Positions 11,673 to 34,686 of a stretch of DNA of 64,000 bases are shown here, one piece after another. The stretch is from a virus. The notes under the pieces were generated by a model, which ran no database searches, had not been told where the DNA came from, and saw only the letters and a program-made list of their open reading frames with translations. Location: positions 1 to 64,000 of the IMG/VR virus record IMGVR_UViG_3300045988_136394. One strand, 5' to 3'. Numbering within the stretch: the stretch's first letter is position 1; every line of letters begins with the position of its first letter. Both the position numbers and the translations under genes were made by a program.

Positions 11673-12347
11673 CCTTTTTTATTTATTTGTAGGTAACTTT
11701 TTACCTTAACTATATTATACACCTTTGCTTGTAAAATTGCAATACTTTTTTATAAAAAATTTTAGCATCTTTTTTTATTGTAACCTATTTACAAATTTAA
11801 ATCGAAGTGGTATAGTTTAAGTATGCCAATGTATAAAGCAAATTAGTAATAATTACTAATAATAAACTATTAATATTAATACGCAATATTTATGCGCATT
11901 TTTAAATAATTAATAAATGTTGCTAGTAACAAATATTTGCTATTAGTACAAGTTACTAATAGGGTAAAGCTGCTGTTAAGTGCAAATATACGATGCTGCC
12001 CTAAACCGTTTGCTGCCCAAAATGCAATGCTACCTTCTTTGATAATGATTTCAAATTAAGAGTTATTCCTATATTCTTAATATTGTTATTTTAGTTATTT
12101 TCTTAATTGCTAATGATTTTTAAATTTAAAATTTTGCCGAATTTTACATTCTGCAGATAACTAATATATAGCCCTTGCAATTAGGGCTATTTTTTATACG
12201 AATAACCATTTTAACGCCAACGAAAATGTACCTACATTAATAATAAATAGGCTGGTAAAGGGTTTATATATACCCCTTGCCAGCCTAAAAATTTCAACAA
12301 TTTAAAAATTTGTATATTTTAAAAACGTACTTAATTTAAAAACGGAC

Positions 12348-12659
12348 TTAATCATATTCAACTGCATAAGTAATTCGACGGTCGCCGAAAAGTGTATTGA
12401 TTACTGCTAACTTTAATAGTTTATGTTTAGTAATATGATATTCAACTTCAAAACTGTAACCATAGCCAACGGCAGTGACTTCAATATGATTACCCCCAGT
12501 TTTATAAACAGTGTCAAGGCTATATACATCACCTAAAATTTGTTCACTCAGTTTGCCGACGAAAAGTTCGAAGTCAAGCTCTGTTTTAATTTTTTCGTGG
12601 CCTGCCAAAAATTCAGTTTCAAATTTTTTAAATAATTCGTATAAGTTCATAATGTACAC
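12348..12659 (-). CDS. hypothetical protein
   Basis: 103-aa ORF with a consensus promoter and leader upstream. Confidence 0.45.
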   Translation of the reverse strand: MYIMNLYELFKKFETEFLAGHEKIKTELDFELFVGKLSEQILGDVYSLDTVYKTGGNHIEVTAVGYGYSFEVEYHITKHKLLKLAVINTLFGDRRITYAVEYD

Positions 12660-16992: not shown

Positions 16993-17204
16993 TTCTTATC
17001 GTACCTCACTTGATATATTAATCCGCATTTATGACATACATATTGACGATATTTTACATTCCCAATAAATATTATTTGCAGGCGTGTCAATTTCCCACAC
17101 CTGCAAATGCGAATATTTTTCTTAATAATGTCCCGATATATCTGACGTATTTTATTCTTTTTCATAATAATTTTCATCTGCGAATATAGTGATTCCCTGA
17201 ACAC
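16989..17204 (-). CDS. small zinc-ribbon protein
   Basis: CRCG...CHKCG pairs. Confidence 0.35.
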   Translation of the reverse strand: MFRESLYSQMKIIMKKNKIRQIYRDIIKKNIRICRCGKLTRLQIIFIGNVKYRQYVCHKCGLIYQVRYDKK

Positions 17205-17430
17205 CTAATAAAACGATTTTATCTAAAGGAAATTTATGTTCTATATTACAAATTAACTTTCCTGTATTTTTATTACGTTTATTACCTAGTGCTTTTAAAA
17301 TTCTTGTTTCTGGATCATAACTAAGAAATTTTGCATGACGATATAATATTCGTTGCTTATAAATAACTCCAACATAAAGCTCGTCGCCAACATTTAATAA
17401 TGCAATTTTTTCTTCATTCAACATTTTCAC
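17152..17430 (-). CDS. hypothetical protein
   Basis: 92-aa ORF. Confidence 0.3.
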   Translation of the reverse strand: MKMLNEEKIALLNVGDELYVGVIYKQRILYRHAKFLSYDPETRILKALGNKRNKNTGKLICNIEHKFPLDKIVLLGVQGITIFADENYYEKE

Positions 17431-18286
17431 CCCCTAAAATTTCCCATTGCTGAATTAACCATTTTTTAAAAGCCATGGCTTTATTAATACCGCTATACTG
17501 CAAAATGGATTTTAATTTCAAAGTAGATTGAGTTGAAAAATCTAATTGTTCTTTATCATAATCCCCATCAATAAAACATTCTAAAAGATAATTCGTATAA
17601 GTATTTAAAAATAATTCCAAATCATATTTATCTTCCTCTTCTTTAAAGTTTATCTGATTTGCTATTTTTAAACAATTTGTAATTGTAACTTCTGGAATAT
17701 TTTCAACAACCTTACGAACATAATCACAAAAATCATGAACACCATAATTTAATAACATTTTTACCTGTTCCGGAGTTTCACAGACTTTTGCAATTTTCGT
17801 CAATTCTTCATTCTTTAGTTTTGGCTGAATTTGTAGAGCATATTCTTTAAGTTCTGAAGGTGGAAATGGTAATAAAGAAATTAACATACCACGACTTAAT
17901 ATAGTTGCCAATGTATTTGATGTACTTTTCAATAACATTACAAAGTAAGCCTGTTGTGGAGGTTCTTCAATAACTTTTAGTAAAGCATTTTTAGCTGCAT
18001 TACTCATATTATCGCAATCTTTAAAAACATACATAATAGGTTTTGTTTGTTTATATGCCATTGAAATAATATTACGAACATCATCAACTTTATTACCACA
18101 ATGAATATAAACTGTTTGCAATCTAGTGCTAATACACTCTGCAATATCTTCGGAGGCTATAGAACTAGCCCCCGAAATAATCATAAATCTTGCAAATGTT
18201 AAATTATCTAAAGTATTTTTTAATTCTTCTTGCATCATAATGTCAACAACCCTGCAATAATAAATTGCTTTGGATTCTGCTCCCAT
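17414..18286 (-). CDS. clamp-loader delta-prime subunit (HolB-like AAA+)
   Basis: NALLKVIEEPP and TILSR motifs, characteristic of clamp-loader subunits. Confidence 0.6.
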   Translation of the reverse strand: MGAESKAIYYCRVVDIMMQEELKNTLDNLTFARFMIISGASSIASEDIAECISTRLQTVYIHCGNKVDDVRNIISMAYKQTKPIMYVFKDCDNMSNAAKNALLKVIEEPPQQAYFVMLLKSTSNTLATILSRGMLISLLPFPPSELKEYALQIQPKLKNEELTKIAKVCETPEQVKMLLNYGVHDFCDYVRKVVENIPEVTITNCLKIANQINFKEEEDKYDLELFLNTYTNYLLECFIDGDYDKEQLDFSTQSTLKLKSILQYSGINKAMAFKKWLIQQWEILGGENVE

Positions 18287-19260
18287 TTAATACGATTAAG
18301 TAGTTCTTGCAATTCACCAGTTAAAACAATTATAAATTGCTTCTTGCCAGTTTCTAATTTACACTCTTTGCTGTAAGAACTAGGAATTTGAACATAATCA
18401 AAATTATGACAAATATTATATTTAACTAAATCAAGTACAAAGAAAAAGAATTGGCGTGTAAATTGTTTTAAATCTTTGCCATCCATATATATATTTTCAA
18501 TGGTTTCTATAATGTTAAACTCGTCTTTTTCATATATATATTCCAGTAATTCAAACATTACACCATAATCTGTTGCCCCTAATGCGTTAACTACATTTTC
18601 AACGGTAATATCCCCACTATAAGATAAACATTTATCTAATAATGTAATGGCATCTCTCATTCCGCCATCTGCAATTTTAGCGATGTACTCTAATGCCTCT
18701 TTATCCCATTCATAACAAATCCCTGCATTAACTTCAAGATCATAATTTTCCTTTTGAAGAATTAAATCTAATCTTTCCACAATTTGATTTGTTGGGATAC
18801 GATGAAAATCAAATCGTTGAACTCGACTTAATATTGTAGCCGGGATTTTTTGTGGGTCTGTAGTACACATTAAAAAGATTGTTTTTAGTGGAGGTTCTTC
18901 TAAAAGTTTTAACATGGCATTCCATGCGCCTGTACTTAACATATGAACTTCGTCTAAAATATAAATTTTAAATTCACCGTCTAAAGATTTGTGTTTAGAG
19001 TCATCAATAATGTTACGAACATTTTCAACGCCATTATTGGAAGCGGCATCAATTTCAATGGCTTTACCTTTACCACCATTTAATTCATTGGCAAAAATGC
19101 GAGCACAGGTTGTTTTACCTGTGCCAGCACCGCCAGTAAATAAGTAACAATTTTTATGATTTTTTGTAACAATTTGCTGTTCAAGAATAGCTTTAATATT
19201 CTCTTGAGCTACTACGTCATTAAAAGTTGTTGGTCTATATTTAACAGCGAGTGAAATCAT
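18235..19260 (-). CDS. clamp-loader ATPase (DnaX gamma/tau-like AAA+)
   Basis: Walker A GGAGTGKTT, Walker B ILDEVHML, LLEEPP motif and a sensor TILSRVQ motif. Confidence 0.75.
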   Translation of the reverse strand: MISLAVKYRPTTFNDVVAQENIKAILEQQIVTKNHKNCYLFTGGAGTGKTTCARIFANELNGGKGKAIEIDAASNNGVENVRNIIDDSKHKSLDGEFKIYILDEVHMLSTGAWNAMLKLLEEPPLKTIFLMCTTDPQKIPATILSRVQRFDFHRIPTNQIVERLDLILQKENYDLEVNAGICYEWDKEALEYIAKIADGGMRDAITLLDKCLSYSGDITVENVVNALGATDYGVMFELLEYIYEKDEFNIIETIENIYMDGKDLKQFTRQFFFFVLDLVKYNICHNFDYVQIPSSYSKECKLETGKKQFIIVLTGELQELLNRIKWEQNPKQFIIAGLLTL

Positions 19261-20340: not shown

Positions 20341-20403
20341 TTACCGCCCCCCCCTGTATGATACTATTATACTATCATACAGGGTCATTGTCAATGATTA
20401 TTT

Positions 20404-23173: not shown

Positions 23174-23900
23174 CAGGTTTTGGCGGTACTATATTCGCAT
23201 CCACATAATCATCACAATCCTGTATTAATTGTATTAAATCTTTTTTCATTTTTTCTGTTATTTCAAGCAAATAACATTTCTTTTCGCAAGTATCCCTATT
23301 TTCATAAACGAATATAATTTTATCAAGTCCTAAAGATAAGGAATATGCAATGGCCTGTCTTTTATGGTCTTCATCTACATCATTACGAGTAACAAACTTG
23401 CGGGAAACTTCTGTCTTAAACTCTATAATGTATAACTCACCTCTATATTTAATAATACCATCGCATAAAAAACTAATATTCCAAGTTTCATTAAAAAGCT
23501 GTGTTTCAATACCTCGTTTACCTTTTACAATAATTCCGGGTAATTCTTTTTGTTCAACATATTTAGCCACATCTAAATATTCACAAGCAAAGCCATTCTT
23601 TTTCATTTCAATAACAGCATTTTGTAAATGTTCATGCCTATCAGTTCCAGACTCCCCTATACCGATAAGGGGAGCCTCTTTAATAGAACTGTCAGGTTCT
23701 TGCTCAACAATTTGATAAAACATATTACGAATACAATTCAAACTGCTGGGCTTATAATGAGCACTAGGTTTACGTTTATTACTATTTGCTGTTCTTTCAA
23801 TGGACTGCAAATAATCTTGTAAAAAAGATTGTGCTACTGGACTTTGCTTCTTTGCCTCATTTACTAAAGTAAGTAAATTTTTTAAAGAAGATTTAGCCAT
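23112..23900 (-). CDS. Cas4/RecB-like PD-(D/E)xK exonuclease with a C-terminal Cys cluster
   Basis: IIEFKT (ExK) motif plus C-terminal CQYC...C cysteines, typical of Cas4-like Fe-S nucleases. Confidence 0.5.
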   Translation of the reverse strand: MAKSSLKNLLTLVNEAKKQSPVAQSFLQDYLQSIERTANSNKRKPSAHYKPSSLNCIRNMFYQIVEQEPDSSIKEAPLIGIGESGTDRHEHLQNAVIEMKKNGFACEYLDVAKYVEQKELPGIIVKGKRGIETQLFNETWNISFLCDGIIKYRGELYIIEFKTEVSRKFVTRNDVDEDHKRQAIAYSLSLGLDKIIFVYENRDTCEKKCYLLEITEKMKKDLIQLIQDCDDYVDANIVPPKPVGIKAKICQYCIYRSQCRKD

Positions 23901-24981
23901 CGATATCCTCGTCTAAAGAAGATAAAATTTGAACGACTTTACCTTCTACCATTTTAATAGCTGTTGGTGTGCCATAGGATAAAGTGATAATATCTGTGGA
24001 TAAAGTATTTACAAGTTCTTTAAATTGAACAATGTCCAATAAGCACTCAAATTCTTTAAAATCATCACTTTCATCATATGGAATAATTTCTTCTGCTTTT
24101 GTTCTTGAAGAAATCATTTTAAGGCCTGTTTTAGTAAACAACAATTTAATAGTATTTTTATCATATTCAGATACGAAAATACTTAAACGGTCTAATGCCG
24201 CTTGCACTAAAGATTTTTTAATTGTACAAGTAGAAGGAAATTTTGTTTCTAAAAAACCATCAAGAGCTTCTACAGGATACGATTCAATATCTTCTAATTG
24301 TGTGCCTGCAATTTCAATCGTTTTGGATTTAATGATAACATCATTATCTACGAAATATACCTGTACATCTTCCTCTGTAATTAGAGTTGACAATTTCAAT
24401 AATTCGATTGGCAATAATGCAGGTCTTTTAAAAACATTTACTGAATATACGCAAAGCCTCAAGCTATCCGTGGTCATTACCCTGTCATTGAAATAATATC
24501 CAGTTATTACAGGATTTTCAATGGTTTTAGCTAAGCTTGCTGTGCAAATATCATAAACCGCCTGAAGAATTGGCTGTTTAACACGTACGGGTTTAACATC
24601 CTCAGGTATTTCTATGGAAACGTCCGGAAATTGCAATATATCCCCATTTTCGTCCAGTACAAGCTCAATATGATAATATCCATTACCTTTAAAAGTTAAA
24701 ACACCTTCCTCAATGGTAAGAATAATATGCTCACTTGTTGTTTTACTTACAAGCTTAGCAAAACTTGCAACAGGCAATACACAAGAAATATTTGGAGCTT
24801 TTACTTTATCTTTGTAAATACTTAAAAAATTAGCTCCATCTGTAGTTCTTAAACACAATACATTATCTTTTACTTCAAAACCAATATAATTCGTTAAAGG
24901 AATAAGTTTATCACAACTTGCACCTTTAACAACTCTGGATACCATATCTTTTAACTCTGATGTAATAATATCAATTTTCAT
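23893..24981 (-). CDS. DNA polymerase sliding clamp (DnaN-like beta subunit)
   Basis: 362 aa. N-terminal MKIDIIT...L...V pattern and clamp-loader context. Confidence 0.5.
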   Translation of the reverse strand: MKIDIITSELKDMVSRVVKGASCDKLIPLTNYIGFEVKDNVLCLRTTDGANFLSIYKDKVKAPNISCVLPVASFAKLVSKTTSEHIILTIEEGVLTFKGNGYYHIELVLDENGDILQFPDVSIEIPEDVKPVRVKQPILQAVYDICTASLAKTIENPVITGYYFNDRVMTTDSLRLCVYSVNVFKRPALLPIELLKLSTLITEEDVQVYFVDNDVIIKSKTIEIAGTQLEDIESYPVEALDGFLETKFPSTCTIKKSLVQAALDRLSIFVSEYDKNTIKLLFTKTGLKMISSRTKAEEIIPYDESDDFKEFECLLDIVQFKELVNTLSTDIITLSYGTPTAIKMVEGKVVQILSSLDEDIDG

Positions 24982-25559
24982 TATTTACTACTCCTTACTA
25001 AATTAATAAAAGATTGTTGTTCATCAAGATTTTCAAAAACGCCACTAGTATGCAAAGTTCTTGTAACCGCTCCTGGCTTTTTAATACCTCTTGCAGTCAT
25101 ACAAGAATGTTCTCCTTCAATCATTACAATTACATTGTCAGTCGATAAAATAGCAGACATAATACGATGAATACTAAATCCCATTCTTTCCTGAATTTGA
25201 AATCTTTTTGCAACCATATCAGCAATACGTGCCATCTTCGAAAGTCCAATTACTTTCGTTCTTGGATAATATCCAATACTTACATTCATATTATACATCA
25301 ATGCAAGATGATGTTCACAGTGACTAAAAACAGGAATATTTGTACAGGTTACAATACCGTGACCAGTTGTTTCAAAACACTTGCCAAACTTACTAACAAG
25401 ATCGGAATCAGAATAGAACTCACCCTCAAGTTGCTCTAACATCATTTTTGCAAATCTTTTAGGAGTTTCCTTTAATGAAGGATCTTGAAGATCTTTTCCA
25501 AAAGCCTGTAAAATAAGCTCTCCTGCGGATATAAGCATTTGTTCTTTAGTATTTTCCAT
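24981..25559 (-). CDS. folE: GTP cyclohydrolase I (FolE); start moved to the internal Met (MENTKEQ...) that abuts the queE stop
   Basis: HCEHH and GHG motifs of FolE. The ORF track extends to 25697 and overlaps queE. Confidence 0.75.
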   Translation of the reverse strand: MENTKEQMLISAGELILQAFGKDLQDPSLKETPKRFAKMMLEQLEGEFYSDSDLVSKFGKCFETTGHGIVTCTNIPVFSHCEHHLALMYNMNVSIGYYPRTKVIGLSKMARIADMVAKRFQIQERMGFSIHRIMSAILSTDNVIVMIEGEHSCMTARGIKKPGAVTRTLHTSGVFENLDEQQSFINLVRSSK

Positions 25560-25560
25560 T

Positions 25561-26214
25561 TTATACTCCTCTTTCATCCGGATTCCATATAATTTTATGA
25601 AGTTGAACTTGTACCATTGTATTTTCAAACATATTATCTTTAACAAATTGAACAAGTTCTTTCGGTTCAATCTGCCCATACACTGGGCTAAGAACATAGG
25701 TACAAATCAAATCCATATTATAAATTCGTTTAAATTCTTCTAAATCTTCTTTAGTAGCAACAACGAATTTCAATACATCATTATAAGTGAGCTTTTTAAG
25801 ATTACTTTCAAGCATTGAACCTAGCATACCACTACTCGGACATTTCCAATCCATTGTAACAAATACTCCGGGCAAACTACAACATGGTTCAATCGGCACA
25901 GAACCATTTGTTTCAATATTTACATGATACCCACCCCAAGATAAAGCTTCAATAAGATCGTTCATACCCGCTCTAAATAATGGTTCTCCACCTGTTAAAG
26001 TTACACGGCAACAACCAATTTTAGCAATGCTTTCAAGAATTTCCTGTAAAGACATATTTGGTTCTTGAACATCTTGTGCGTAAAGGGTATCACAATAACT
26101 ACAACATAAGTTACAGCCATTAAAGCGTACAAAAGTTGAAAGAAATCCAGTTCTAATTCCTTCACCTTCCACACTTAAAAACATTTCATTTACACTATAT
26201 ATCTTCTTGTTCAT
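25561..26214 (-). CDS. queE: 7-carboxy-7-deazaguanine synthase (QueE, radical SAM)
   Basis: CNLCCSYC (CxxxCxxC) radical-SAM cluster motif, about 217 aa. Confidence 0.75.
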   Translation of the reverse strand: MNKKIYSVNEMFLSVEGEGIRTGFLSTFVRFNGCNLCCSYCDTLYAQDVQEPNMSLQEILESIAKIGCCRVTLTGGEPLFRAGMNDLIEALSWGGYHVNIETNGSVPIEPCCSLPGVFVTMDWKCPSSGMLGSMLESNLKKLTYNDVLKFVVATKEDLEEFKRIYNMDLICTYVLSPVYGQIEPKELVQFVKDNMFENTMVQVQLHKIIWNPDERGV

Positions 26215-26533
26215 AAATTGCTAAATTCCCTTCGCTTTCTTGTACTTCTACTCTGTAACACGTTGGAATAATATCACAAATATATTTTGCAATATTTTCA
26301 GCTGTTGGATTAAAAGGAACAACTTGATTAATACTTTGATGATCGAATACATCCATTACACATTTTTTAATATGTGTAAAATCCTCAACCATGCCATAAT
26401 CCGAAAGTTCTCTAGCTTTGCAATAAATTTTAACTTTCCAATTATGACCGTGAAGATTAGCGCATTTACTCTCATAAGGCAGATTTAAATAATGAGATGC
26501 AGATATTTCTAATTCTTTGATAACTGTGTACAT
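26195..26533 (-). CDS. queD: 6-carboxy-5,6,7,8-tetrahydropterin synthase (QueD)
   Basis: CANLHGHNW (CxxxHGH) zinc motif, about 112 aa. Confidence 0.75.
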   Translation of the reverse strand: MYTVIKELEISASHYLNLPYESKCANLHGHNWKVKIYCKARELSDYGMVEDFTHIKKCVMDVFDHQSINQVVPFNPTAENIAKYICDIIPTCYRVEVQESEGNLAIYEQEDI

Positions 26534-26712
26534 TTTCTTCCTCCTGGTTTAATACGATTATGATATCTTTTTACTTTTACTTCGTGAATAAGATTTAATA
26601 ATACTTCAGCAGAAACTAATAAATTACCATTAGTATATTCATTTGCATATAAAGCAGTCTTTGCTCTTGTTTCTAGTTCTTTGATGGTTTTACCGTCTAC
26701 CATTTTTGCCAT
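26509..26712 (-). CDS. hypothetical 67-aa protein embedded in the deazaguanine operon
   Basis: ORF between queC and queD. No motif. Confidence 0.3.
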   Translation of the reverse strand: MAKMVDGKTIKELETRAKTALYANEYTNGNLLVSAEVLLNLIHEVKVKRYHNRIKPGGRKCTQLSKN

Positions 26713-26714
26713 AA

Positions 26715-27401
26715 TTAACCTCGCAAAGCTGGATCTTTTACACCATTAACTTCAAAAGCATGAGCTCTATCTCTACATGTACCACATACTCCACAAGGTT
26801 TTTCTCCACCCTCATAACAAGACCATGTAAATTTATAAGGGACTTTCAATGACAATCCAGCTTTAACAACTTCGCCTTTATTAAACATAATCAAAGGAGC
26901 TCTTAATGTAAGTTGGCCGCCAGTACCTTCTAAAATTGCTTTACGCATGGCATCCACAAATTCAGGAGTACAGTCCGGATATGCCCTACCAGCCGCATCA
27001 TCTGCATGAGCGCCATACCACACTTCACAGCCCCCGAGGGAATAAGCCAAAGACGCCGCTGAAGATAACATTAAGCCGTTACGAAATGGTACATAGGTAC
27101 TAACAGTCCCTTCACCACCTAATTCCTTTAATTGTTCGGCATAGGTAGTATGTTTAATTTCATTTTTACTATTTTTTAATAAACAGCAATCACTCAATTC
27201 CATAATACTACTAATATCCCGAACAATATGTTGAACACCATAATGTTCCGCTAACTTTTTAGCACAAGCTAATTCTTTCTCATGCTTTTGGCCGTAGTAA
27301 ATAGATAACGCTGTTACCTCTTTATTGCCATAACAATCAACTGCCATACCTAAACAAGTAGCGCTATCAACACCACCGCTCAACAATACAACTGCTTTCA
27401 A
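26715..27401 (-). CDS. queC: 7-cyano-7-deazaguanine synthase (QueC)
   Basis: SGGVDS PP-loop and C-terminal CGVCGTCRDR zinc motif. Confidence 0.85.
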   Translation of the reverse strand: MKAVVLLSGGVDSATCLGMAVDCYGNKEVTALSIYYGQKHEKELACAKKLAEHYGVQHIVRDISSIMELSDCCLLKNSKNEIKHTTYAEQLKELGGEGTVSTYVPFRNGLMLSSAASLAYSLGGCEVWYGAHADDAAGRAYPDCTPEFVDAMRKAILEGTGGQLTLRAPLIMFNKGEVVKAGLSLKVPYKFTWSCYEGGEKPCGVCGTCRDRAHAFEVNGVKDPALRG

Positions 27402-28321
27402 AATAATCGCCTCCTAATAATTTTTCCACCATGATAAGTATATTCTTTTGCCCAATCCATCAAAAATGTTACATTCCACAAATCGCGCTGAACATAATCT
27501 TCCATTAACTGCTCAAAATCGAAATTCTTGCTTTTAATGTAAGATTTTAAATCTTCCAAAGCTACAGCACTACCATTTAAAGGGTGAGCCATTTTATCCT
27601 TTTGCTGAGCACTAATAATAATAGTACCCCATGGAGTATAAATTGCTCCATTATGCCCGCTTTGAATCCACGAAGAACTATCCGCAGAAGTAACTGGATA
27701 TTGGACTAAAGTTTTTCTTACAGTCATTCCAAAAGCATGGACTTTAACATTGGGATTACTCGAACTTTTTATAATATCAAAACATAACGATAAAAAGTTC
27801 TTTTGTACATCTTTAGGCTTGCCCACCATACCACCAAGAGCGATATATTTTAATGGTTGGCCATTTTCATCTCGCCATTCTAAGGCTCTACGCAAACACC
27901 ATATCGGTTCACCCACATGGAACGTATATAGTAAGCCATCCTTATTTAAAACAGCATCCCTCATATACAAATAATTTTTCCATGTTTTTACAGCTGCATC
28001 TAATACTTGTGCTTGTGTAGGCTTTTGCCTGATGTTTCCTGGAATACAGTCCAATTGACCAAATAAATCAATATACTGCACTCTGTCGTTTAAAAAGTAA
28101 ACATAATCATCAACATTAATATATGTACCTTTAGTCCATGCAGTAAAAGCACCACTGTCAATAAATAGTTTACCTTTTCGACCGTATTGATTAATCCAGC
28201 CAATCCATCTATCAATATTTTTCCTTTCGTTCAAATAACTGAATAGATGATTGGCTCCCATATCGAACAAGCACTTATCTACATGATCTGTAACTTGTCC
28301 CGCAAAATATAAATCTAACAT
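27398..28321 (-). CDS. dpdA: DpdA-like tRNA-guanine-transglycosylase-family protein (putative 7-deazaguanine DNA transglycosylase)
   Basis: ALGGMVGK resembles the TGT AIGGL(A/S)VGE motif. Operon context with folE, queD, queE and queC. Confidence 0.55.
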   Translation of the reverse strand: MLDLYFAGQVTDHVDKCLFDMGANHLFSYLNERKNIDRWIGWINQYGRKGKLFIDSGAFTAWTKGTYINVDDYVYFLNDRVQYIDLFGQLDCIPGNIRQKPTQAQVLDAAVKTWKNYLYMRDAVLNKDGLLYTFHVGEPIWCLRRALEWRDENGQPLKYIALGGMVGKPKDVQKNFLSLCFDIIKSSSNPNVKVHAFGMTVRKTLVQYPVTSADSSSWIQSGHNGAIYTPWGTIIISAQQKDKMAHPLNGSAVALEDLKSYIKSKNFDFEQLMEDYVQRDLWNVTFLMDWAKEYTYHGGKIIRRRLF

Positions 28322-28349
28322 TACAAACCCCCTTTCTGTTTATATTACT

Positions 28350-28378
28350 ATTATACCTTACTATTATAATAATGTCAA
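28350..28378 (-). promoter_or_regulatory. consensus promoter TTGACA-17-TATAAT (minus strand) for the dpdA-queC-queD-queE-folE operon
   Basis: Reverse complement reads TTGACATTATTATAATAGTAAGGTATAAT. Confidence 0.55.
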
Positions 28379-28415
28379 TAAAAATAACCATTACGATTCA
28401 GTCGTAATGGTTATT
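28379..28415 (-). terminator. Rho-independent terminator after the DNA polymerase gene
   Basis: aataaccattacg-attcagt-cgtaatggttatt hairpin with a T-run on the minus strand. Confidence 0.55.
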
Positions 28416-28422: not shown

Positions 28423-30705
28423 TTATTCGTTTTCATACCAACACTTTGTGATTTCAACATCACATTTTAAAGGCACAGAGAGTGAGGCTGCATTTATCAT
28501 ACATTCAGAAAGTAATTCAGCACATCTTATTTTATTCTCCTCTGGACATTCCCCAATAATTTCATCATGTACCTGAATAAGTAGTCGGAAGCCAAGCTGT
28601 TTTAACTCTTCACAACGACTAATAGATAACATGGCGAATTTTGTTAGGTCAGCCGCACTTCCTTGTACCCTAGCATTTACACACATACGAGTTGCATCAG
28701 CAATTTTCATCCGATTATCAACTACCTTTATACCCTCGTTATTCGCCTCTTCAATTACGGCTTGATGTTGCTTAAAGCTCTTACATCCAGCTAATTTATT
28801 CCAATAATATGTTACGATTTCTTCAGGTACTTCAGTATTTTGATCTTCATCATCGGCAAGTGGGTCATAGTCTTTCGACACACCATCTTTCCAATAAAAT
28901 TCGTAGGTGTCTAATTGCATATCAGGAAGTCTTCTTTTTCTTCCCCATGCAGTAGTTACATAACCTAGATCTCTTGCCATTTGCCGACTCTCTTCTCTAA
29001 ATGTTTTTAATTTAGGAAAAGCGTTTAAAACTGCATCGTATATTTCCTGAGCTAATTTTTTAGAAATATGTAAATCATCTGCAATAGCCGGGATTCCTTT
29101 ATCATAGTTAATACCTAAAAGAATAGCCTTTGCTCGACTACGTCTTTCCTTTCCTTCAGGATTGTGTGTGCCATCGGGTCTAAATTCCAAACAGTCATCA
29201 TACGGAACATTGAAAGCTAATGAAGCGATTTCGGCGTACAAATCTTTTCCATCGATATAAGCCTGAATACCTTTTTCGTCCTGCGCTAAATGCACAGTCA
29301 ATCGAGGTTCCTGAGCTGAGTAATCGCAGGATAACATTACATAGCCGTCACTAGCCTTGAACATTTTTCGTATGTCTTTTGCATGGCTTGGAATATTTTG
29401 CAAATTAGGGTCATCACTCGAGAAACGACCTGTAATTGTTCCAAGTTGATTAAATCTCGCATGAATCCTCCCTGTTTTTGCATTTATAATTTTTGGGAAT
29501 TTATCTACATATGTAGATACTAATTTTGAAGCCTTACGAAATTTCAATAAGGCCGTTACCAATGGATTATCAAACTGCTCAAGAATTTCTTCTCCTGTGC
29601 CACGAGGTTTCTTCTTGCTTACTGGAGGCAGTTTCATAATATCATACAACAGGATAGATAGTTGCTCTGGACTGGCTGGATTAATCTTCTCAGGCAGTTT
29701 ACAAGAAGAACCTTGTTTGATTCTATATTCTTCGATTTCAGATTCATAGAGTGAAAGAGTTTCTTCGAACTCTACCGCAGCTTCACTCATAAGCTTGTTA
29801 TACTTTTCAGATAACTTTTGCTGAACCTCTAAATCAAGAAATACTCCTGTATCTTCCATTTCAGAAACGATTGGAACCAATGGCATTTCTAATTCATGGA
29901 ATATTTTAGCAACATCTTGCAACTCATACTCTCTGCATACTTCAGTATCGGTTAAAAACGGACGTTGAAATTCGGCTAATTCATATGTAATCATAGGGTC
30001 ATTAGCCGCATATAAATACGCAACATCAACAGGAATCATTGTAAACGGAATACCCGCAAACAACTCTGAAAATGTATGCGATTTATCCTTGCCTTTATTA
30101 ACGTACTTATCCCATAAACCCTTTAAACTATTATTTTTATTATTTTCATCGAGCAGTCGTTGTGCAATATAGCCATCCCACCAACAAAACATTTTAATGC
30201 CTAAAGTATGTTTTAATACCCTACAGTCAAAATCGCTATTAAACATATCAATTTTCACTTTTGCATCTATTAAACGCTGTAATTCACGTTTAACAATTTC
30301 AGCTGAAATTTGCCCTTTAATCGGCATACCTGTCATATAACTAACATGATTTACAGGTACATAAGCAGCTTTATATCCTGGAGTATATAAACAAACACCT
30401 GCTAAAGTTGTAGTGATGGGATCTAAACTTGTTGTTTCTGTATCGATTGCCCCAATACCATTTTCAATAAATTTATCAATTAAATCTATTAAAATAGCTT
30501 CGTCCATAACATTTAAGTACATATCTTTTTTATCAGCAAAATACCTATTTGTCATGGCTTTAATTGAAGTAATTCGACTAGATAAATTACCTGCCTTCAA
30601 CTTTACGTTTCCGGCAGATAATATAGGTAATTTTGATTTAGCTTTATTGACAACTTGTGCATCCGTTATTTTTGATGAACGAGGTTTAAAATCAAATAGA
30701 GCCAT
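28423..30705 (-). CDS. family-A DNA polymerase (PolA-like) with a 3'-5' exonuclease domain
   Basis: Exo I motif AIDTETTSL. Motif A LSCDYSAQEPRL, motif B RRSRAKAILLGINYDKG, motif C QVHDEII. Confidence 0.9.
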   Translation of the reverse strand: MALFDFKPRSSKITDAQVVNKAKSKLPILSAGNVKLKAGNLSSRITSIKAMTNRYFADKKDMYLNVMDEAILIDLIDKFIENGIGAIDTETTSLDPITTTLAGVCLYTPGYKAAYVPVNHVSYMTGMPIKGQISAEIVKRELQRLIDAKVKIDMFNSDFDCRVLKHTLGIKMFCWWDGYIAQRLLDENNKNNSLKGLWDKYVNKGKDKSHTFSELFAGIPFTMIPVDVAYLYAANDPMITYELAEFQRPFLTDTEVCREYELQDVAKIFHELEMPLVPIVSEMEDTGVFLDLEVQQKLSEKYNKLMSEAAVEFEETLSLYESEIEEYRIKQGSSCKLPEKINPASPEQLSILLYDIMKLPPVSKKKPRGTGEEILEQFDNPLVTALLKFRKASKLVSTYVDKFPKIINAKTGRIHARFNQLGTITGRFSSDDPNLQNIPSHAKDIRKMFKASDGYVMLSCDYSAQEPRLTVHLAQDEKGIQAYIDGKDLYAEIASLAFNVPYDDCLEFRPDGTHNPEGKERRSRAKAILLGINYDKGIPAIADDLHISKKLAQEIYDAVLNAFPKLKTFREESRQMARDLGYVTTAWGRKRRLPDMQLDTYEFYWKDGVSKDYDPLADDEDQNTEVPEEIVTYYWNKLAGCKSFKQHQAVIEEANNEGIKVVDNRMKIADATRMCVNARVQGSAADLTKFAMLSISRCEELKQLGFRLLIQVHDEIIGECPEENKIRCAELLSECMINAASLSVPLKCDVEITKCWYENE

Positions 30706-31361
30706 TAGAAGCTTTCTCTACGATTACGTCGAGCTTTAGGTTCTGCAGGTGTACGTCTTTTAACCCCTTCATCTGTGGCAGGATTTCTTCTTTGGGATTG
30801 TTCTTCCAATCCTGGCATTTTACCAGTATCTAAAAATTCATCCAATTCTTCGGCTGTTTTATTTAATAAGAATGTTTCCGGAACTTCTGGAACTTCTGGA
30901 AAATCTTCCAATGTTTTATCGTCACCTTTTATTGGAAACAAAAGATATTCAGTAGTTTGTTCTCCTTTTGCTCCATTACGTTCAATTTCAATTGATTGTG
31001 AGCATAAAGGATTATAACGCGCACATAAACTTGTGAGCTTATCGATAAACTTTTTACCACGTTCCCATAATTTAACAGAACCATCATCTTCTATATATAA
31101 TGGAACAAAAACCCGTAATTGAATTTTATTTCCAGAAGCACATAACGGACAAACTTCTATAGAATCATTAATCTGTCTTAGGCATTCAACCCATTTATCT
31201 CGGCCATTAATTTTGACACGATGAAGTGAATGAGCTTCAATATCGTCAACATTATTATACAAAATTCTTACTGTAGCAACATCGCGATCTTCTTTAAGTT
31301 GAAAAAAATTAGTTGTACTTGTAGTATATTGGTCTACTTCATCATATCGAACTCGTGCCAT
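30705..31361 (-). CDS. putative gp32-like single-stranded-DNA-binding protein (zinc-binding)
   Basis: H-x12-C-x10-C-x2-C spacing (LHRVKINGRDKWVEC...CPLC) matches the T4 gp32 zinc-site architecture. Confidence 0.45.
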   Translation of the reverse strand: MARVRYDEVDQYTTSTTNFFQLKEDRDVATVRILYNNVDDIEAHSLHRVKINGRDKWVECLRQINDSIEVCPLCASGNKIQLRVFVPLYIEDDGSVKLWERGKKFIDKLTSLCARYNPLCSQSIEIERNGAKGEQTTEYLLFPIKGDDKTLEDFPEVPEVPETFLLNKTAEELDEFLDTGKMPGLEEQSQRRNPATDEGVKRRTPAEPKARRNRRESF

Positions 31362-32354: not shown

Positions 32355-33361
32355 TACTTTTTGGATAAAAAAATTTCAGGGCAATTTTTAAATTCCTGCT
32401 CAGATAAATCATTAATATCTTTACCTCTTGGAACTACTAAAGATTTAACCAATTTATTATCAATAACTTTAATTAATCTCTTAGCGCCTTTATCTCCAGC
32501 TTCATCTCCATCAAAAGCGGCTACTATTTTTCTAAAAGGAAGTTTTTTAATTAAATTAAATTGTTCTGGCGTGCCTGTACCTAATAATGCTATAGCAGCT
32601 ACACCATATTTAACAGCCGTTATAGCATTTATTATACTCTCACACACATATAATGTATCTTGACTATAATCCAATTCATACACACCATATAATGGTTTAA
32701 ACACGTTTTCCGGATAATGGTAAAGCTTGAAATGTATTGCCCTTCGTGCAATAAACAGAGTTCTGCCCTGCATATCCCTCACAGGGAATGTTATGCAGGG
32801 AAAGGTATTTTCATTTTTCTTTAACTTAAATTTAGGGTCATAACCAATATCGTATTTTTCAATAAGTTCTTCAGTAAGACCTCGTTTAAACATATAATCA
32901 TGATAATAACGATATCTATCTAATTGTTTTTCCGGAACATATTGTTGTTCTGAATGATTACTATTTCTACTCAATTTTAAATCTAAAGGTTTTCTATCTT
33001 CTATATCTATAGATAAAAAATTCTTTATTAGCCACTTTGTACCATATGCACCCGAATCATCATATCCATAAATATAACTAATCATTTCAGGTAGTGTTGC
33101 AGTATAGCCACATGTAAAACAATGTACAGTCCCGGCTGGAATTTTTTTACCATTTATTATTTTATCAACTCTTGATATACCACAAGAAGGCCTTTTTTCT
33201 TGCCCATTATTATGCACCGGACAACAAATTTGTATATTTGAATCTGTTACTATAAACCGACCAAACAAACTAATACCTAATTGTTCTTCTATCTGTGATT
33301 GTAAAAATTGCAAAATAGAAACATCGTCTTCTAATAAAGCTTTGCCCCGAATTGTAAACAT
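32351..33361 (-). CDS. DnaG-type DNA primase
   Basis: Zinc finger CCPVH...CGI and CFTCG. TOPRIM aspartates AAFDGDEAGDKG. Confidence 0.75.
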   Translation of the reverse strand: MFTIRGKALLEDDVSILQFLQSQIEEQLGISLFGRFIVTDSNIQICCPVHNNGQEKRPSCGISRVDKIINGKKIPAGTVHCFTCGYTATLPEMISYIYGYDDSGAYGTKWLIKNFLSIDIEDRKPLDLKLSRNSNHSEQQYVPEKQLDRYRYYHDYMFKRGLTEELIEKYDIGYDPKFKLKKNENTFPCITFPVRDMQGRTLFIARRAIHFKLYHYPENVFKPLYGVYELDYSQDTLYVCESIINAITAVKYGVAAIALLGTGTPEQFNLIKKLPFRKIVAAFDGDEAGDKGAKRLIKVIDNKLVKSLVVPRGKDINDLSEQEFKNCPEIFLSKKY

Positions 33362-34686
33362 TAAAAGACCTCTTTTCTATCTTTATATTTTTTACGTTGT
33401 GTTTCTTCGACTTTTTGCCGTTCTTGTGGGGCTACTGAATCCGTTGCACTTGGCACATAAACAAAACGCCCTTTATCGATATCCCAAAAATAAATCAGGT
33501 TTACTCCTACAGCACCAGTTCTATTTTTAGTCAACGATAATTTTAAGCCAGCCCCTGTTTGCCTAATAAACAATACCTTTGAACTATTTTGACCGATACT
33601 ATCGCTATCGGCTAAATTAGTTAAGTCTGGATCGTCTTGAACATTATCTTTACGAATATCACCATCACGATTTAATTGAGATAATCCGATTATTGGAATA
33701 TCATATCTTTCGGATAAACGCATTAAACCTTCAGTTATACTAAATAATTGTTCTGTTTTACTTTTTCCTCGACGATATGTTTCATCGTCCATTAAACTGT
33801 ATTGGTCAATACCAATAATATCAGCCTTACAAGCCGTTATCATTGATTGTATAGAGGATACGGTTGCCCTACCGCCAAAACTTTTAGGTGTAAAAACATA
33901 AAAAGGCAGCATATTTTTCTGTGTTTTATCAATAAAATCTTCATAACCTGAAACATTTTCACCAATAACAAGAGCTTTGTTCGAAAAATTGGCTAATAAA
34001 GTATCAAAACGATACCCAATTTGCATATCATTCATTTCGCCACTGTACATAGCAATACGCTTGCCCTGTTTCCATGCCTCTACTAACATTTTCAATAATA
34101 TCCACGTTTTACCCTGATTAGGTCTTCCTGCTACAGTCAATAATTCGTTTCCTGGCTCTAATCCATATATTACTTCGTCGAGTTCAGGAAATCCGGTTTT
34201 GATATAATTTGTTCCAAATTCCTTTTTTTGTTGGTGTAATTCTAATCTTTCTTTTGCTTTTTTAACTATATTAGAGCCACCAACAATATTTTGACTATTT
34301 AATGCAACTACCTGTGCAGATAAATAATTCAAAGCTTCCCTTGAATCGTCCCGCATTTTATCTGCGGTTTCCTGCACTACAGAAACCATCTGTGAATATA
34401 AATATTCTTCTCTTAGAGTGCTAATTAAAAAGTCGTCAGTTTCTTTAACTTCTGTAATTGGGAAATCTGGAAAATTTTGAAGCATTGTTTCTTTATCCGG
34501 AACTTTGCCATAAAGACTAACATGTCTACGAATAAAATTAAACTCTTCTTCGTATTCTAAAAAATAATCTTCCGTTAGGTTGTTTTGTGTAACAATATCA
34601 AAACTTCCTGTATTTAAACATTTGCTTAAAATTTGAAGTTTAACCACGACGTCTATCCTTTCCACGCAAAGCAACAATATCTCCAC
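33361..34686 (-). CDS. DnaB-family replicative helicase
   Basis: Walker A AGRPNQGKTW and C-terminal IIGLSQLNRD, typical of DnaB-family helicases. Confidence 0.8.
   Translation of the reverse strand: MEILLLCVERIDVVVKLQILSKCLNTGSFDIVTQNNLTEDYFLEYEEEFNFIRRHVSLYGKVPDKETMLQNFPDFPITEVKETDDFLISTLREEYLYSQMVSVVQETADKMRDDSREALNYLSAQVVALNSQNIVGGSNIVKKAKERLELHQQKKEFGTNYIKTGFPELDEVIYGLEPGNELLTVAGRPNQGKTWILLKMLVEAWKQGKRIAMYSGEMNDMQIGYRFDTLLANFSNKALVIGENVSGYEDFIDKTQKNMLPFYVFTPKSFGGRATVSSIQSMITACKADIIGIDQYSLMDDETYRRGKSKTEQLFSITEGLMRLSERYDIPIIGLSQLNRDGDIRKDNVQDDPDLTNLADSDSIGQNSSKVLFIRQTGAGLKLSLTKNRTGAVGVNLIYFWDIDKGRFVYVPSATDSVAPQERQKVEETQRKKYKDRKEVF

What the first reader, a model, noticed from the sequence alone, without database searches (positions are those of the whole stretch)
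24981..28415. Complete 7-deazaguanine (preQ0) DNA-modification operon with its own promoter
The genes, by motif, are folE (CEHH), queE (radical SAM CxxxCxxC), queD (CxxxHGH), queC (SGGVDS plus zinc Cys cluster) and a TGT-family DpdA-like protein (AIGGL-like motif). Together they form a preQ0 pathway plus a DNA transglycosylase. Such operons are known in phages whose DNA carries 7-deazaguanine derivatives as protection against restriction. The operon has a consensus promoter and terminator (28350-28415). It also contains an uncharacterised 67-aa ORF (26509..26712) between queC and queD, which could be an accessory factor.
Basis: partly seen in the sequence, partly recalled or inferred. Interest (0 to 1): 0.6.

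Follow-up and report, generated by a model that had tools for sequence, protein, structure and literature searches.

The report
Phage preQ0 DNA-modification operon with DpdA
A very common, uncultured gut phage carries a complete gene set for making the modified base preQ0 and swapping it into its own DNA in place of guanine; this is a known anti-restriction strategy, but the swapping enzyme ends in a short tail that may tether it to the phage's replication clamp.

Summary
On the minus strand, 24981-28415 holds dpdA, queC, a 67-aa ORF, queD, queE and folE. They sit behind a perfect sigma-70 promoter and a strong ribosome-binding site. All four preQ0 enzymes match their families and keep their catalytic motifs. 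The DpdA-like protein has no Pfam hit, but it is 39% identical to Streptococcus phage Dp-1 DpdA, matches proven DpdA1 enzymes, and its model (pLDDT 93.5) matches tRNA-guanine transglycosylases. No QueF, QueT or amidotransferase was found, so dPreQ0 is the predicted product.

Two corrections apply. The hairpin at 28383-28415 terminates the upstream polA gene. The operon has no 3' terminator and runs on into dnaN. FolE starts at 25559.

- The 67-aa ORF is a real, conserved small protein, found between queC and queD in three lineages.
- The DpdA beta6-alpha6 loop (GGMVG versus SPAND) co-varies with QueF/QueT across relatives, which supports preQ0 specificity.
- DpdA ends in a disordered RRRLF tail. 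The same [Q/K/R]xxLF tail recurs on eight other protein families in related phages, including DNA-modifying enzymes, and in DpdA1 linked to a phage dnaN. It probably binds the sliding clamp.

This is a new member of a known kind.

The parts
28383..28415 (-). Intrinsic terminator hairpin (14-bp stem, T-run) that ends the upstream polA transcription unit
   Evidence: Almost identical in the sister lineage, although synonymous sites in the flanking genes are saturated.
28350..28378 (-). Sigma-70-type promoter TTGACA-17-TATAAT, 12 of 12 matches
   Evidence: Both hexamers are unchanged in L011, L021 and L024.
28328..28336 (-). Ribosome-binding site GAAAGGGGG of dpdA
   Evidence: Conserved in the sister lineage.
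27398..28321 (-). dpdA: 307-aa DNA guanine transglycosylase of the phage DpdA1 type
   Evidence: phrog_887 1e-44. 39% identity to Dp-1 gp07. AF2 model pLDDT 93.5. Foldseek top hits are TGTs. Invariant D55, D91, H135, G164, H195 and D214.
27818..27841 (-). Codons for the beta6-alpha6 loop ALGGMVGK (residues 161-168), the probable pocket for the 7-substituent
   Evidence: Strand 159-163 and helix 170-186 in the model. The motif co-varies with QueF/QueT across 80 loci. The role of this loop in TGT and bacterial DpdA is described in PMC10164549.
27401..27415 (-). Codons for the C-terminal tail RRRLF, a putative sliding-clamp-binding motif
   Evidence: pLDDT below 50 for residues 303-307. 98 of 120 homologues end in LF. 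LF tails are enriched across families. Tails in cultured phages.
26715..27401 (-). queC: 7-cyano-7-deazaguanine (preQ0) synthase, TTG start overlapping the dpdA stop
   Evidence: PF06508 2e-59; TIGR00364 178.5 bits, above its 150.3 cutoff. 56% identity to Dp-1 QueC.
26509..26712 (-). 67-aa conserved small protein of unknown function; two-helix hairpin with a basic tail; overlaps the queD RBS and start by 25 nt
   Evidence: No family hit. Homologues occur only between queC and queD in three lineages. dN/dS 0.25. In-frame indels in P0002 and P0008. AF2 model pLDDT 72.6.
26195..26533 (-). queD: 6-carboxytetrahydropterin synthase
   Evidence: PF01242 1e-27; TIGR03367 85 bits, just under its 89.25 cutoff. 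CANLHGH motif.
25561..26214 (-). queE: radical-SAM 7-carboxy-7-deazaguanine synthase
   Evidence: TIGR03963 5e-69 (232 bits, below its 260 cutoff); PF04055. CX3CX2C motif.
24981..25559 (-). folE: GTP cyclohydrolase I, 192 aa from the ATG at 25559
   Evidence: PF01227 2e-50; NF006826 171 bits, above its 162 cutoff. Gene call of 192 aa in contigs that encode the identical DpdA.
23893..24981 (-). dnaN-like sliding clamp, translationally coupled to folE; proposed docking partner of the DpdA tail
   Evidence: phrog_947 4e-28 and TIGR00663 2e-9. 29% identity to Dp-1 DnaN, E 5e-37. Sole PDB sequence hit is the T. maritima beta subunit, E 0.002.

Best explanation
This is a phage 7-deazaguanine DNA-modification module.

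Transcription: a strong sigma-70-type promoter just after the polA terminator drives dpdA-queC-orf67-queD-queE-folE. Transcription probably continues into dnaN and the recombination genes.

Chemistry:
- FolE converts GTP to dihydroneopterin triphosphate.
- QueD makes 6-carboxytetrahydropterin.
- QueE, a radical-SAM enzyme, makes 7-carboxy-7-deazaguanine.
- QueC makes 7-cyano-7-deazaguanine (preQ0).
- DpdA is a stripped-down TGT-fold TIM barrel without the zinc subdomain. It excises guanine from double-stranded phage DNA at preferred sequence contexts and inserts preQ0, giving dPreQ0.

Outcome: because there is no QueF, ArcS, Gat-QueC or DpdL/M/N, dPreQ0 should be the final base. It probably replaces a fraction of the guanines, as in other DpdA1 phages, and should shield the genome from host restriction enzymes.

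Shown here: gene identities, motifs, fold, synteny and conservation. Inferred: the DNA substrate, the product and the protective role. More speculative: the disordered C-terminal RRRLF tail docks DpdA on the phage's own sliding clamp, so base exchange follows the replication fork.
For: Gene identities:
- HMM matches for all four pathway enzymes, with their catalytic motifs visible in the translations.
- DpdA is 39% identical to Dp-1 DpdA, whose phage carries dPreQ1 (PMC6884629).
- DpdA also matches Iggy DpdA, whose phage carries dPreQ0 (5e-20), and DpdA of Nonagvirus JenK1, a relative of phage 9g (9e-24) (PMC10484667 abstract).
- The AF2 model has pLDDT 93.5 and its top PDB hits are all tRNA-guanine transglycosylases.
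- Residues matching the bacterial DpdA active site (D95, D130, H181, G206/G207, D256; PMC10164549) are invariant here as D55, D91, H135, G163/G164 and D214. The weak NCBIfam DpdA alignment places D214 at about model position 256.

Context:
- Order and content match the Dp-1 replication module: DpdA, preQ0 genes, DnaN, Cas4-like nuclease, RecU, UvsX.

Product:
- Five diverse QueF queries, including E. coli bimodular QueF, and Dp-1 QueT find nothing in the window.
- The QueF queries also find nothing in relatives' loci covering the rest of the genome, where no QueF- or QueT-like Pfam family is listed.
- Among 80 related IMG/VR loci, GG-type loops like this one (36 distinct proteins, 26 with full QueCDE plus FolE) never co-occur with QueF or QueT.
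- All 3 bounded SPAND-type loci that carry the pathway also carry QueF, and 4 others carry QueT.
- Gene content matches group 2 of Hutinet et al. 2019 (DpdA plus preQ0 genes, giving dPreQ0).

Selection:
- DpdA dN/dS is 0.05 against the sister lineage.
- The promoter and terminator region is almost invariant while dS exceeds 1.5.
Against: - No chemistry was done, so the product and the DNA substrate are inferred from homologues.
- Pfam gives no TGT hit, and the NCBIfam DpdA score is 20 bits against a cutoff of 200. A sequence profile of the family finds no TGT in the PDB. The link to TGT therefore rests on the fold and on phage homologues.
- The zinc site conserved in TGTs and bacterial DpdA is absent.
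- The published rule for the Gly-rich loop (GGhsbb for preQ0, GGhsG for preQ1) would class GGMVGK with the preQ1 or queuine enzymes. My preQ0 call relies instead on the phage-specific co-variation and on Iggy.
- A host QueF could supply preQ1.
- QueE and QueD score slightly below their equivalog cutoffs.
Confidence: 0.8

Rival explanations
1. The module does modify DNA, but the final base is not dPreQ0. Host QueF, or an unrecognised phage enzyme such as the 67-aa protein or the HD-domain protein downstream, could convert preQ0 so that dPreQ1, dADG, dG+ or another derivative is installed.
For: - The closest cultured homologue, Dp-1, carries dPreQ1.
- DpdA2 enzymes are promiscuous between preQ0, preQ1 and CDG.
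- The loop GGMVGK fits the published GGhsG pattern for preQ1 or queuine enzymes.
- A conserved ORF of unknown function sits inside the operon.
Against: - No QueF, QueT, ArcS/DUF5591, Gat-QueC or methyl- or formyl-transferase was found in the window or in relatives' loci covering the rest of the genome.
- GG-type loops never co-occur with QueF or QueT in 36 distinct relatives. Dp-1, Flasso and every QueF-carrying locus have SPAND instead.
- Iggy, which has GGMVGK, contains dPreQ0.
Confidence: 0.13
2. The genes are auxiliary metabolic genes for tRNA. The phage boosts host queuosine or preQ-tRNA to tune translation, and the TGT-like protein acts on tRNA, as older annotations ('queuine tRNA-ribosyltransferase') imply.
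For: - PHROG and GenBank names for homologues say tRNA-ribosyltransferase.
- The fold is that of tRNA-guanine transglycosylases.
Against: - Every tested member of this phage clade modifies DNA.
- The protein lacks the zinc subdomain of TGTs: its only cysteines are C17, C92, C142 and C180.
- The phage encodes no tRNA.
- The gene is embedded between polA and dnaN and carries a clamp-binding-like tail.
Confidence: 0.04
3. The 67-aa ORF is not a gene. It is a chance ORF over a queC-queD spacer that holds the queD ribosome-binding site or an RNA element.
For: - No family hit.
- Its last ~50 nt are nearly identical at nucleotide level in the sister lineage, and it overlaps the queD RBS and start.
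- Frameshifted variants exist among metagenomic copies (P0003, P0005, P0009).
Against: - dN/dS is 0.25 with dS 0.88, similar to queD, queE and folE.
- Indels in P0002 and P0008 are in frame.
- A third, divergent homologue (P0132, E 5e-7) sits in the same queC-queD slot. It has its own GGAGG RBS, a TAATG coupled start and no overlap with queD.
- No Rfam family matches.
Confidence: 0.1

Closest known systems
Streptococcus phage Dp-1 queuosine-like cluster (gp1-gp7) and its replication module
   Same: - Best DpdA match: 39% identity over the full length.
- QueC is 56% identical.
- Same neighbourhood: DpdA and preQ0 genes, followed by DnaN, Cas4-like nuclease, RecU and UvsX-like recombinase.
- The DpdA tail is QRRLF.
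   Different: - Dp-1 also has QueF and the transporter QueT, and its DNA carries dPreQ1. The window has neither gene.
- The Dp-1 DpdA loop is GISPANDS, against ALGGMVGK here.
- Gene order differs: DpdA is last in Dp-1 and first here.
- Dp-1 has no homologue of the 67-aa ORF.
dPreQ0 phages with DpdA1 plus FolE, QueD, QueE and QueC (Escherichia phage CAjan, Mycobacterium phage Rosebush, Pseudomonas phage Iggy); group 2 of Hutinet et al. 2019
   Same: - Identical gene content, and therefore the same predicted product, dPreQ0.
- Iggy DpdA shares the GGMVGK loop and an LF C-terminus, and lies next to dnaN.
- Iggy and Vibrio phage VhaS-tm also have a small ORF between queC and queD.
   Different: - Only about 29% identity to Iggy DpdA.
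- Those are proteobacterial or mycobacterial phages with no nucleotide similarity to this window.
- Their small queC-queD ORFs show no sequence similarity to the 67-aa ORF.
- This phage has a contractile tail, is about 65 kb with 32% GC, and is known only from gut metagenomes.
Bacterial DpdA of the Dpd restriction-modification system (Salmonella Montevideo)
   Same: - TGT-like TIM barrel with the same set of active-site Asp, His and Gly residues.
- Inserts preQ0 into DNA.
   Different: - Scores 20 bits against a cutoff of 200 for NF041059.
- About 100 residues shorter.
- Lacks the CXCX2CX22H zinc site and the Ins8 subdomain.
- No DpdB or DpdC partners in the window.
- Carries a C-terminal LF tail instead.
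Beta-clamp-binding motif QL[SD]LF of bacterial clamp partners (known from my own knowledge: Dalrymple et al. 2001; the C-termini of Pol II and Pol IV)
   Same: - A short hydrophobic LF motif at a disordered C-terminus.
- Relatives read QRRLF, QGKLF, QMELF, QQGLF, KKLSLF and QRQSLF.
- It occurs in phages that encode their own DnaN.
   Different: - The window's tail is RRRLF, with no Gln.
- Binding has not been shown.
- I found no paper that links DpdA with a clamp.

Membership tests
TGT superfamily (tRNA-guanine transglycosylase fold) | (beta/alpha)8 TIM barrel of the TGT type | tested here: met
   AF2 model pLDDT 93.5 with eight strand-helix units. The top 50 Foldseek PDB hits are all TGT or ArcTGT: probability 1.00, E 6e-9, TM about 0.6.
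TGT superfamily (tRNA-guanine transglycosylase fold) | Sequence match to the curated TGT model (Pfam PF01702) | tested here: not met
   No Pfam family at E <= 0.01. A family profile finds no TGT among PDB sequences.
TGT superfamily (tRNA-guanine transglycosylase fold) | Catalytic aspartates and Gly-Gly loop (bacterial DpdA D95, D130, D256, H181, G206/G207) | tested here: met
   D55 (FIDSGAF), D91, H135, G164 and D214 (SADSS) are invariant and G163 nearly invariant in 35 homologues. D55, D91, H135, H195 and D214 are kept in all full-length DpdAs of the IMG/VR loci. The NCBIfam DpdA local alignment (residues 158-222 to model 200-263) puts D214 at about position 256. Positions were assigned by alignment, not by superposition.
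TGT superfamily (tRNA-guanine transglycosylase fold) | Structural zinc site CXCX2C...H | tested here: not met
   The only cysteines are C17, C92, C142 and C180. There are none in the C-terminal 127 residues (translation). The site is conserved in TGTs and bacterial DpdA.
Phage DpdA1 subfamily | Significant similarity to experimentally characterised DpdA1 (9g/CAjan group, Dp-1, Iggy) | tested here: met
   tblastn: Dp-1 1e-56; Nonagvirus JenK1 9e-24; Iggy 5e-20; phiSM 3e-13. The multiple alignment shows shared motifs throughout.
Phage DpdA1 subfamily | Conserved histidine (position 196 of 9g DpdA) that DpdA2 lacks | tested here: met
   H195 in KVHAFG is invariant and aligns with the His of KVHGFG in JenK1 (a 9g relative) and in Iggy. 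The feature is described in PMC6884629. The 9g protein itself was not aligned.
Phage DpdA1 subfamily | Guanine-for-preQ0 exchange in double-stranded DNA | not testable with these tools
   Needs enzyme assays or nucleoside mass spectrometry.
Bacterial DpdA (NCBIfam NF041059 equivalog) | Score above the curated cutoff, with partner genes dpdB and dpdC | tested here: not met
   20 bits against a cutoff of 200. No ParB-like DpdB or DpdC among the Pfam annotations of the genome.
preQ0 biosynthesis pathway (FolE, QueD, QueE, QueC) | All four enzymes present with catalytic motifs | tested here: met
   FolE: NF006826 171 bits, above 162. QueC: TIGR00364 178.5 bits, above 150.3. QueD: PF01242 97 bits (TIGR03367 85 bits, below 89.25). 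QueE: PF04055 plus TIGR03963 232 bits, below 260. Motifs CEHH, CxxxHGH, CX3CX2C and SGGVDS plus the Cys cluster are present.
dPreQ1 / dG+ / other derivative pathways | QueF, ArcS (DUF5591), Gat-QueC, QueT/YhhQ transporter, DpdL/M/N | tested here: not met
   No tblastn hit with five QueF queries or with QueT. QueC is 228 aa with no Gat domain. No such Pfam family appears in gene tables that cover the genome. DpdL, DpdM and DpdN were not searched with their own sequences.
Beta-clamp-binding motif proteins | Short QL[SD]LF-like peptide in a disordered terminus | tested here: inconclusive
   The tail RRRLF has pLDDT below 50 and lacks Gln. Homologues have QxxLF or KLSLF. 9 of 74 multi-member families are LF-tailed, against 0.26 expected.
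Beta-clamp-binding motif proteins | Physical binding to the hydrophobic cleft of the clamp | not testable with these tools
It needs AF-multimer, pull-down or ITC.

The most novel reading that the evidence does not exclude
The C-terminal [Q/K/R]xxLF tail is a docking peptide for the phage-encoded DnaN clamp. It is shared by DpdA and by eight other protein families in these phages, among them DNA and SAM methyltransferases, an ArcS-like DUF5591 protein, a PAPS-reductase-like protein and DUF6884 proteins; a single TET-associated-glycosyltransferase-like protein carries it too. On this reading, 7-deazaguanine base exchange and other DNA hypermodifications are physically coupled to the replication fork rather than being free-diffusing post-replicative events. 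A second, smaller reading: the beta6-alpha6 loop (GG[ML]VG versus SPAND versus AATTD) is a readable code for which 7-deazaguanine a DpdA1 inserts (preQ0, preQ1 or CDG).
Probability: 0.5. Interest if true: 0.6.

Novelty: new member of a known kind. Interest (0 to 1): 0.4.

Why it matters
On its own the operon is a textbook example of a known anti-restriction strategy.

It matters mainly because of where it is. The exact DpdA protein is indexed in more than 9,000 blocks of public assemblies, so one of the commonest uncultured gut phage lineages probably carries dPreQ0 in its DNA. That would affect how well its DNA is cut, cloned, sequenced and targeted by host defences.

The comparative by-products are testable and could be general:
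- A clamp-binding tail would explain how a base-exchange enzyme keeps up with replication, and why dpdA so often sits next to dnaN.
- The loop motif could allow the modified base to be predicted from sequence alone in metagenomes.

Tried and rejected
- Megablast of the operon and of 24 kb of structural genes against 50,697 phage genomes found no relative. The only hit was a 57-nt capsid match to Brevibacillus phages.
- Sequence searches of DpdA against the PDB, with the single sequence and with a 37-sequence profile, gave only chance hits. The fold search was needed.
- I looked for a preQ1 riboswitch or any other RNA family, in the operon at permissive threshold and in the whole window at gathering threshold. 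Nothing matched.
- No tRNA genes were found.
- I tested whether the 67-aa ORF is related to the small queC-queD ORFs of Iggy and Vibrio phage VhaS-tm, or to Dp-1 gp8/gp9. No similarity was found.
- A profile search of 1.84 billion representative proteins found only 5 relatives of the small ORF, so no function could be transferred.
- Its AF2 model is a generic two-helix hairpin of moderate confidence, so I ran no fold search on it.
- QueF was searched with unimodular and bimodular queries and is absent.
It was repeated without them.
- A look-up of the truncated MuF ORF returned only a short contig, so the capsid protein was used instead.
- Host identity was not pursued.

Full report
**Observation**

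All genes in 24981-28415 lie on the minus strand. In order of transcription they are:
- a 307-aa TGT-like protein (27398-28321);
- QueC (26715-27401, TTG start overlapping the preceding stop);
- a 67-aa ORF (26509-26712);
- QueD (26195-26533);
- QueE (25561-26214);
- FolE (24981-25559).

The longest FolE ORF (238 aa) overlaps queE. In contigs that encode the identical DpdA the gene is called from the ATG at 25559, giving 192 aa. The Pfam match begins 14 residues after that start.

HMM matches are unambiguous for the four pathway enzymes:
- QueC: PF06508, 2e-59.
- QueD: PTPS, 1e-27.
- QueE: TIGR03963, 5e-69.
- FolE: PF01227, 2e-50.

The 100-nt gap between polA (28423-30705) and dpdA holds three elements. 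There is a 14-bp hairpin with a T-run at 28415-28383. There is a 12-of-12 TTGACA-17-TATAAT promoter at 28378-28350. There is a GAAAGGGGG ribosome-binding site.

The hairpin lies upstream of the promoter, so it terminates the polA unit, not this operon. The folE stop overlaps the start of a dnaN-like gene at 24981. No convincing minus-strand terminator appears before the next perfect promoter at 20394-20366. The promoter therefore most likely drives about 8 kb: the modification genes, then dnaN, a Cas4-like nuclease, RecU, an HD-domain protein and a RecA/UvsX-like recombinase. This is an inference from consensus scans.

The intergenic region is almost identical in a sister lineage whose coding regions have dS of 1.5-1.8. 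That argues the terminator, promoter and RBS are functional.

**Is the TGT-like protein a DpdA?**

Curated models do not recognise it.
- Pfam gives no hit.
- The NCBIfam bacterial DpdA model gives 20 bits against a cutoff of 200.
- A 37-sequence profile finds no TGT among PDB sequences.

Three other lines of evidence do place it.
1. *Homologues.* It matches phrog_887 at 1e-44. It is 39% identical over its full length to Streptococcus phage Dp-1 gp07. It also hits Pseudomonas phage Iggy DpdA (5e-20), Nonagvirus JenK1 (9e-24) and Cellulophaga phiSM DpdA1 (3e-13). Dp-1 DNA carries dPreQ1, 9g DpdA1 inserts preQ0, and Iggy DNA carries dPreQ0.
2. *Fold.* An AlphaFold model built on 35 metagenomic homologues has mean pLDDT 93.5 and eight strand-helix units. 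Its top 50 PDB matches are all bacterial, archaeal or eukaryotic tRNA-guanine transglycosylases (probability 1.00, E 6e-9).
3. *Active site.* The residues that define the bacterial DpdA active site are D95, D130, H181, G206/G207 and D256. Their counterparts here are D55, D91, H135, G163/G164 and D214. All are invariant among the homologues except G163, which is nearly invariant.

H195 aligns with the histidine that distinguishes DpdA1 from DpdA2. The zinc site of TGTs and bacterial DpdA is absent, because there is no cysteine after residue 180. The protein is therefore a member of the phage DpdA1 subfamily, not of bacterial DpdA.

**Which base is inserted?**

The window has no QueF or QueT (tblastn with Dp-1 and Flasso proteins). 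Five diverse QueF queries, including E. coli bimodular QueF, find nothing in the window. They also find nothing in relatives' loci that cover the parts of the genome outside it. The gene tables list no QueF-like or other deazaguanine family there. QueC is a plain 228-aa protein without a glutamine amidotransferase domain. This gene content is group 2 of Hutinet et al. 2019, which predicts dPreQ0.

I then asked whether the enzyme itself looks like a preQ0 enzyme. In TGTs and bacterial DpdA the loop between strand 6 and helix 6 contacts the 7-substituent. In the model this loop is residues 164-169, following strand 159-163.

Across 80 related IMG/VR loci the loop is bimodal.
- GG-type (xLGG[ML]VGx): 36 distinct proteins bounded by polA and dnaN. 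Of these, 26 have the full QueC/D/E plus FolE set, and none has QueF or QueT.
- xISPANDx type: 17 distinct proteins. All 3 that have the pathway also have QueF, 4 have the transporter QueT, and 10 have neither.
- AATTD or SS loops: three loci, which have QueD, QueE and FolE but lack QueC.

The experimental anchors agree. Iggy (GGMVGK) carries dPreQ0. Dp-1 (ISPAND) carries dPreQ1.

The window's ALGGMVGK is therefore of the preQ0 type.

Caveats:
- One of the two search patterns contained the GG motif, which inflates the number of GG loci.
- Only 10 kb on each side of each match was examined.
- The published GGhsbb versus GGhsG rule for bacterial enzymes would classify this loop differently.

**The 67-aa ORF**

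It has no family match. A word-index search found only nine clusters at 65% identity or more. A full HMMER scan of 1.84 billion representatives found five relatives.

It is nevertheless a real gene.
- In the sister lineage (DpdA 90%, QueD 60% identical) a 62-aa homologue sits in the same queC-queD slot. dN/dS is 0.25 at dS 0.88, like queD, queE and folE.
- Two variants carry in-frame deletions.
- A third, more divergent 57-aa homologue (E 5e-7) again lies between a QueC C-terminus and QueD. It has its own GGAGG site, a TAATG coupled start and no overlap with queD.

The conserved core is EYTxG...VxAxxLLxLIHEV[KR]x[KR]R[YF]. AlphaFold gives a two-helix hairpin with a basic tail at moderate confidence (pLDDT 72.6).

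Small ORFs occupy the same slot in Iggy and in Vibrio phage VhaS-tm but show no similarity to this one. The function is unknown. My best guess, with low confidence, is a pathway-associated accessory protein, for example an adaptor for the QueC-QueD steps or a small nucleic-acid-binding factor.

**The C-terminal tail**

The last five residues of DpdA, RRRLF, are the only low-confidence part of the model (pLDDT below 50). Of the 120 best homologues, 98 end in LF. These include forms 350-520 aa long. Typical tails are KKLSLF, QRQSLF and KKKKLF.

In proxy gene sets from the 80 loci, 123 of 1,669 ORFs end in LF, against 5.8 expected from composition. Nine of the 74 families with three or more distinct members are majority LF-tailed, against 0.26 expected (Poisson p about 1e-11). 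No other terminal dipeptide is shared by more than two families.

Besides DpdA, the LF-tailed proteins annotated by Pfam include:
- a SAM methyltransferase;
- an N6/N4 DNA methylase;
- a DUF5591 (ArcS-like) protein;
- a PAPS-reductase-domain protein;
- two DUF6884 families;
- a protein with a weak match to TET-associated glycosyltransferases (a single sequence).

Among cultured phages, every DpdA1 that I checked with a phage dnaN nearby has the motif, apart from phiSM (below):

| Phage | DpdA1 tail |
|---|---|
| Dp-1 | QRRLF |
| Flasso | QGKLF |
| Iggy | QELF |
| JenK1 | QDLFDE |
| PSASB_03 | QMELF |
| VhaS-tm | QGLF |
| Pan1 | QQYLFGGL |
| BcepGomr | QQGLFV |
| RHph_X3_2 | ERRLF |
| ZHS | KQSLW |
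| 83AMN | KLELF |

Mycobacterium phage Rinkes has no dnaN near dpdA and no such tail. phiSM DpdA1 lacks the tail, but its two neighbours, one of them ParB-like, end in VNLF.

The motif resembles the bacterial beta-clamp-binding consensus QL[SD]LF (my own knowledge). The window phage encodes its own clamp and a DnaX/delta/delta' loader. I found no paper that links DpdA to a clamp. Binding is untested. I put the probability that the tail docks on the clamp at about 0.5.

**What phage is this?**

The window holds replication, lysis, contractile-tail and head genes. GC content is about 32%. The exact DpdA is indexed in 9,358 assembly blocks and the capsid protein in 6,649. Typical contigs are 60-66 kb, and at least one comes from a sample labelled as a gut metagenome. 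No deposited phage genome is close.

**Verdict**

It is a new member of a known kind: a DpdA1 plus preQ0-pathway phage with dPreQ0 as the predicted product.

The added value is comparative:
- a probable clamp-binding tail shared by phage DNA-modifying enzymes;
- a loop motif that tracks the substrate;
- a conserved small protein in the operon.

All functional statements remain inferences until the nucleosides of the virion DNA are measured.

Noticed in passing
L015-L094 (IMG/VR relatives), e.g. L032:10924-12314, L064:6648-7397, L045:9636-10553, L048:2601-3641, L091:11032-11898: Many unrelated proteins encoded near polA and dnaN in related phages end in the same [K/R]xLF-COOH tail as DpdA. By Pfam they include a SAM methyltransferase, a DNA N6/N4 methylase, a DUF5591/ArcS-like protein, a PAPS-reductase-like protein, DUF6884 proteins and, weakly, a TAGT-like glycosyltransferase. 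Nine of 74 families are majority LF-tailed, against 0.26 expected.
   Followed up: partly
L079:10001-13916, L094:858-4252, L091:10001-15476: Relatives whose DpdA loop reads GLAATTDS or ISSNKD have QueD, QueE and FolE but no recognisable QueC hit. This suggests that they insert CDG or a derivative of it. They also carry an LF-tailed methyltransferase next to dpdA.
   Followed up: no
L026, L028, L033-L035, L037, L038, L040, L071 (between dpdA and dnaN): Accessory genes sit inside the modification module of relatives. From motifs in the translations they look like a zinc deaminase-like protein (HAE...PCxxC), a phosphoribosyltransferase-like protein (VDDICDTGES) and YhhQ/DUF165-like membrane transporters. 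Some loci have QueC but no QueD, QueE or FolE. These identities were read by eye and not checked by HMM.
   Followed up: no
L077:10001-12581: One relative encodes three tandem DpdA paralogues in a row, with different loop motifs.
   Followed up: no
window 20366-20394 (-) and 8751-8779 (-): Two more perfect 12-of-12 TTGACA-17-TATAAT promoters, the same as the dpdA promoter. The phage seems to use a small set of consensus host-type promoters.
   Followed up: partly
window 7639-8004 (-): A 121-aa protein with a borderline match to the restriction alleviation protein Lar (PF14354, 27.4 bits against a cutoff of 28.6). It may be a second anti-restriction function in the same phage.
   Followed up: partly
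window 16015-19260 (-) and 23893-24981 (-): The phage encodes its own clamp loader (DnaX-like, delta'-like and delta-like proteins) as well as the DnaN-like clamp. It also has a family A polymerase, a DnaB helicase, a Toprim primase and a DnaD-like initiator.
   Followed up: partly
window 1-12500: This end of the window has higher GC (0.36-0.40 up to 8 kb), short or fragmentary ORFs, a plus-strand block including a Rad52-like protein (4888-5814), and a cluster of strong bidirectional hairpins at 10400-12200. It differs from the densely packed minus-strand genes elsewhere.
   Followed up: no
window 27398-28321 versus L011:3396-4319: DpdA is 90% identical between the two sister lineages (dN/dS 0.05). 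The adjacent preQ0 enzymes are only 60-73% identical and PolA is 82% identical. So DpdA is either under unusually strong constraint or was recently exchanged.
   Followed up: partly
window 30705-31361, 33361-34686; families in L015-L094: Other replisome proteins also end in a hydrophobic residue plus Phe. The helicase tails read KEVF or TDVF, some primase tails read KIIF or QELF, and the 218-aa protein after polA ends in RRESF. VF (54 ORFs) and IF (28 ORFs) endings are also frequent in the proxy gene sets.
   Followed up: no
L100:3129-4303 (Cellulophaga phage phiSM) and L099:1-2560 (Mycobacterium phage Rinkes): The two DpdA1 proteins that lack the LF tail each sit next to a ParB-like gene. This recalls the ParB-like DpdB that bacterial DpdA needs. 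phiSM DpdA1 was reported inactive when expressed alone in E. coli (PMC10516641).
   Followed up: no
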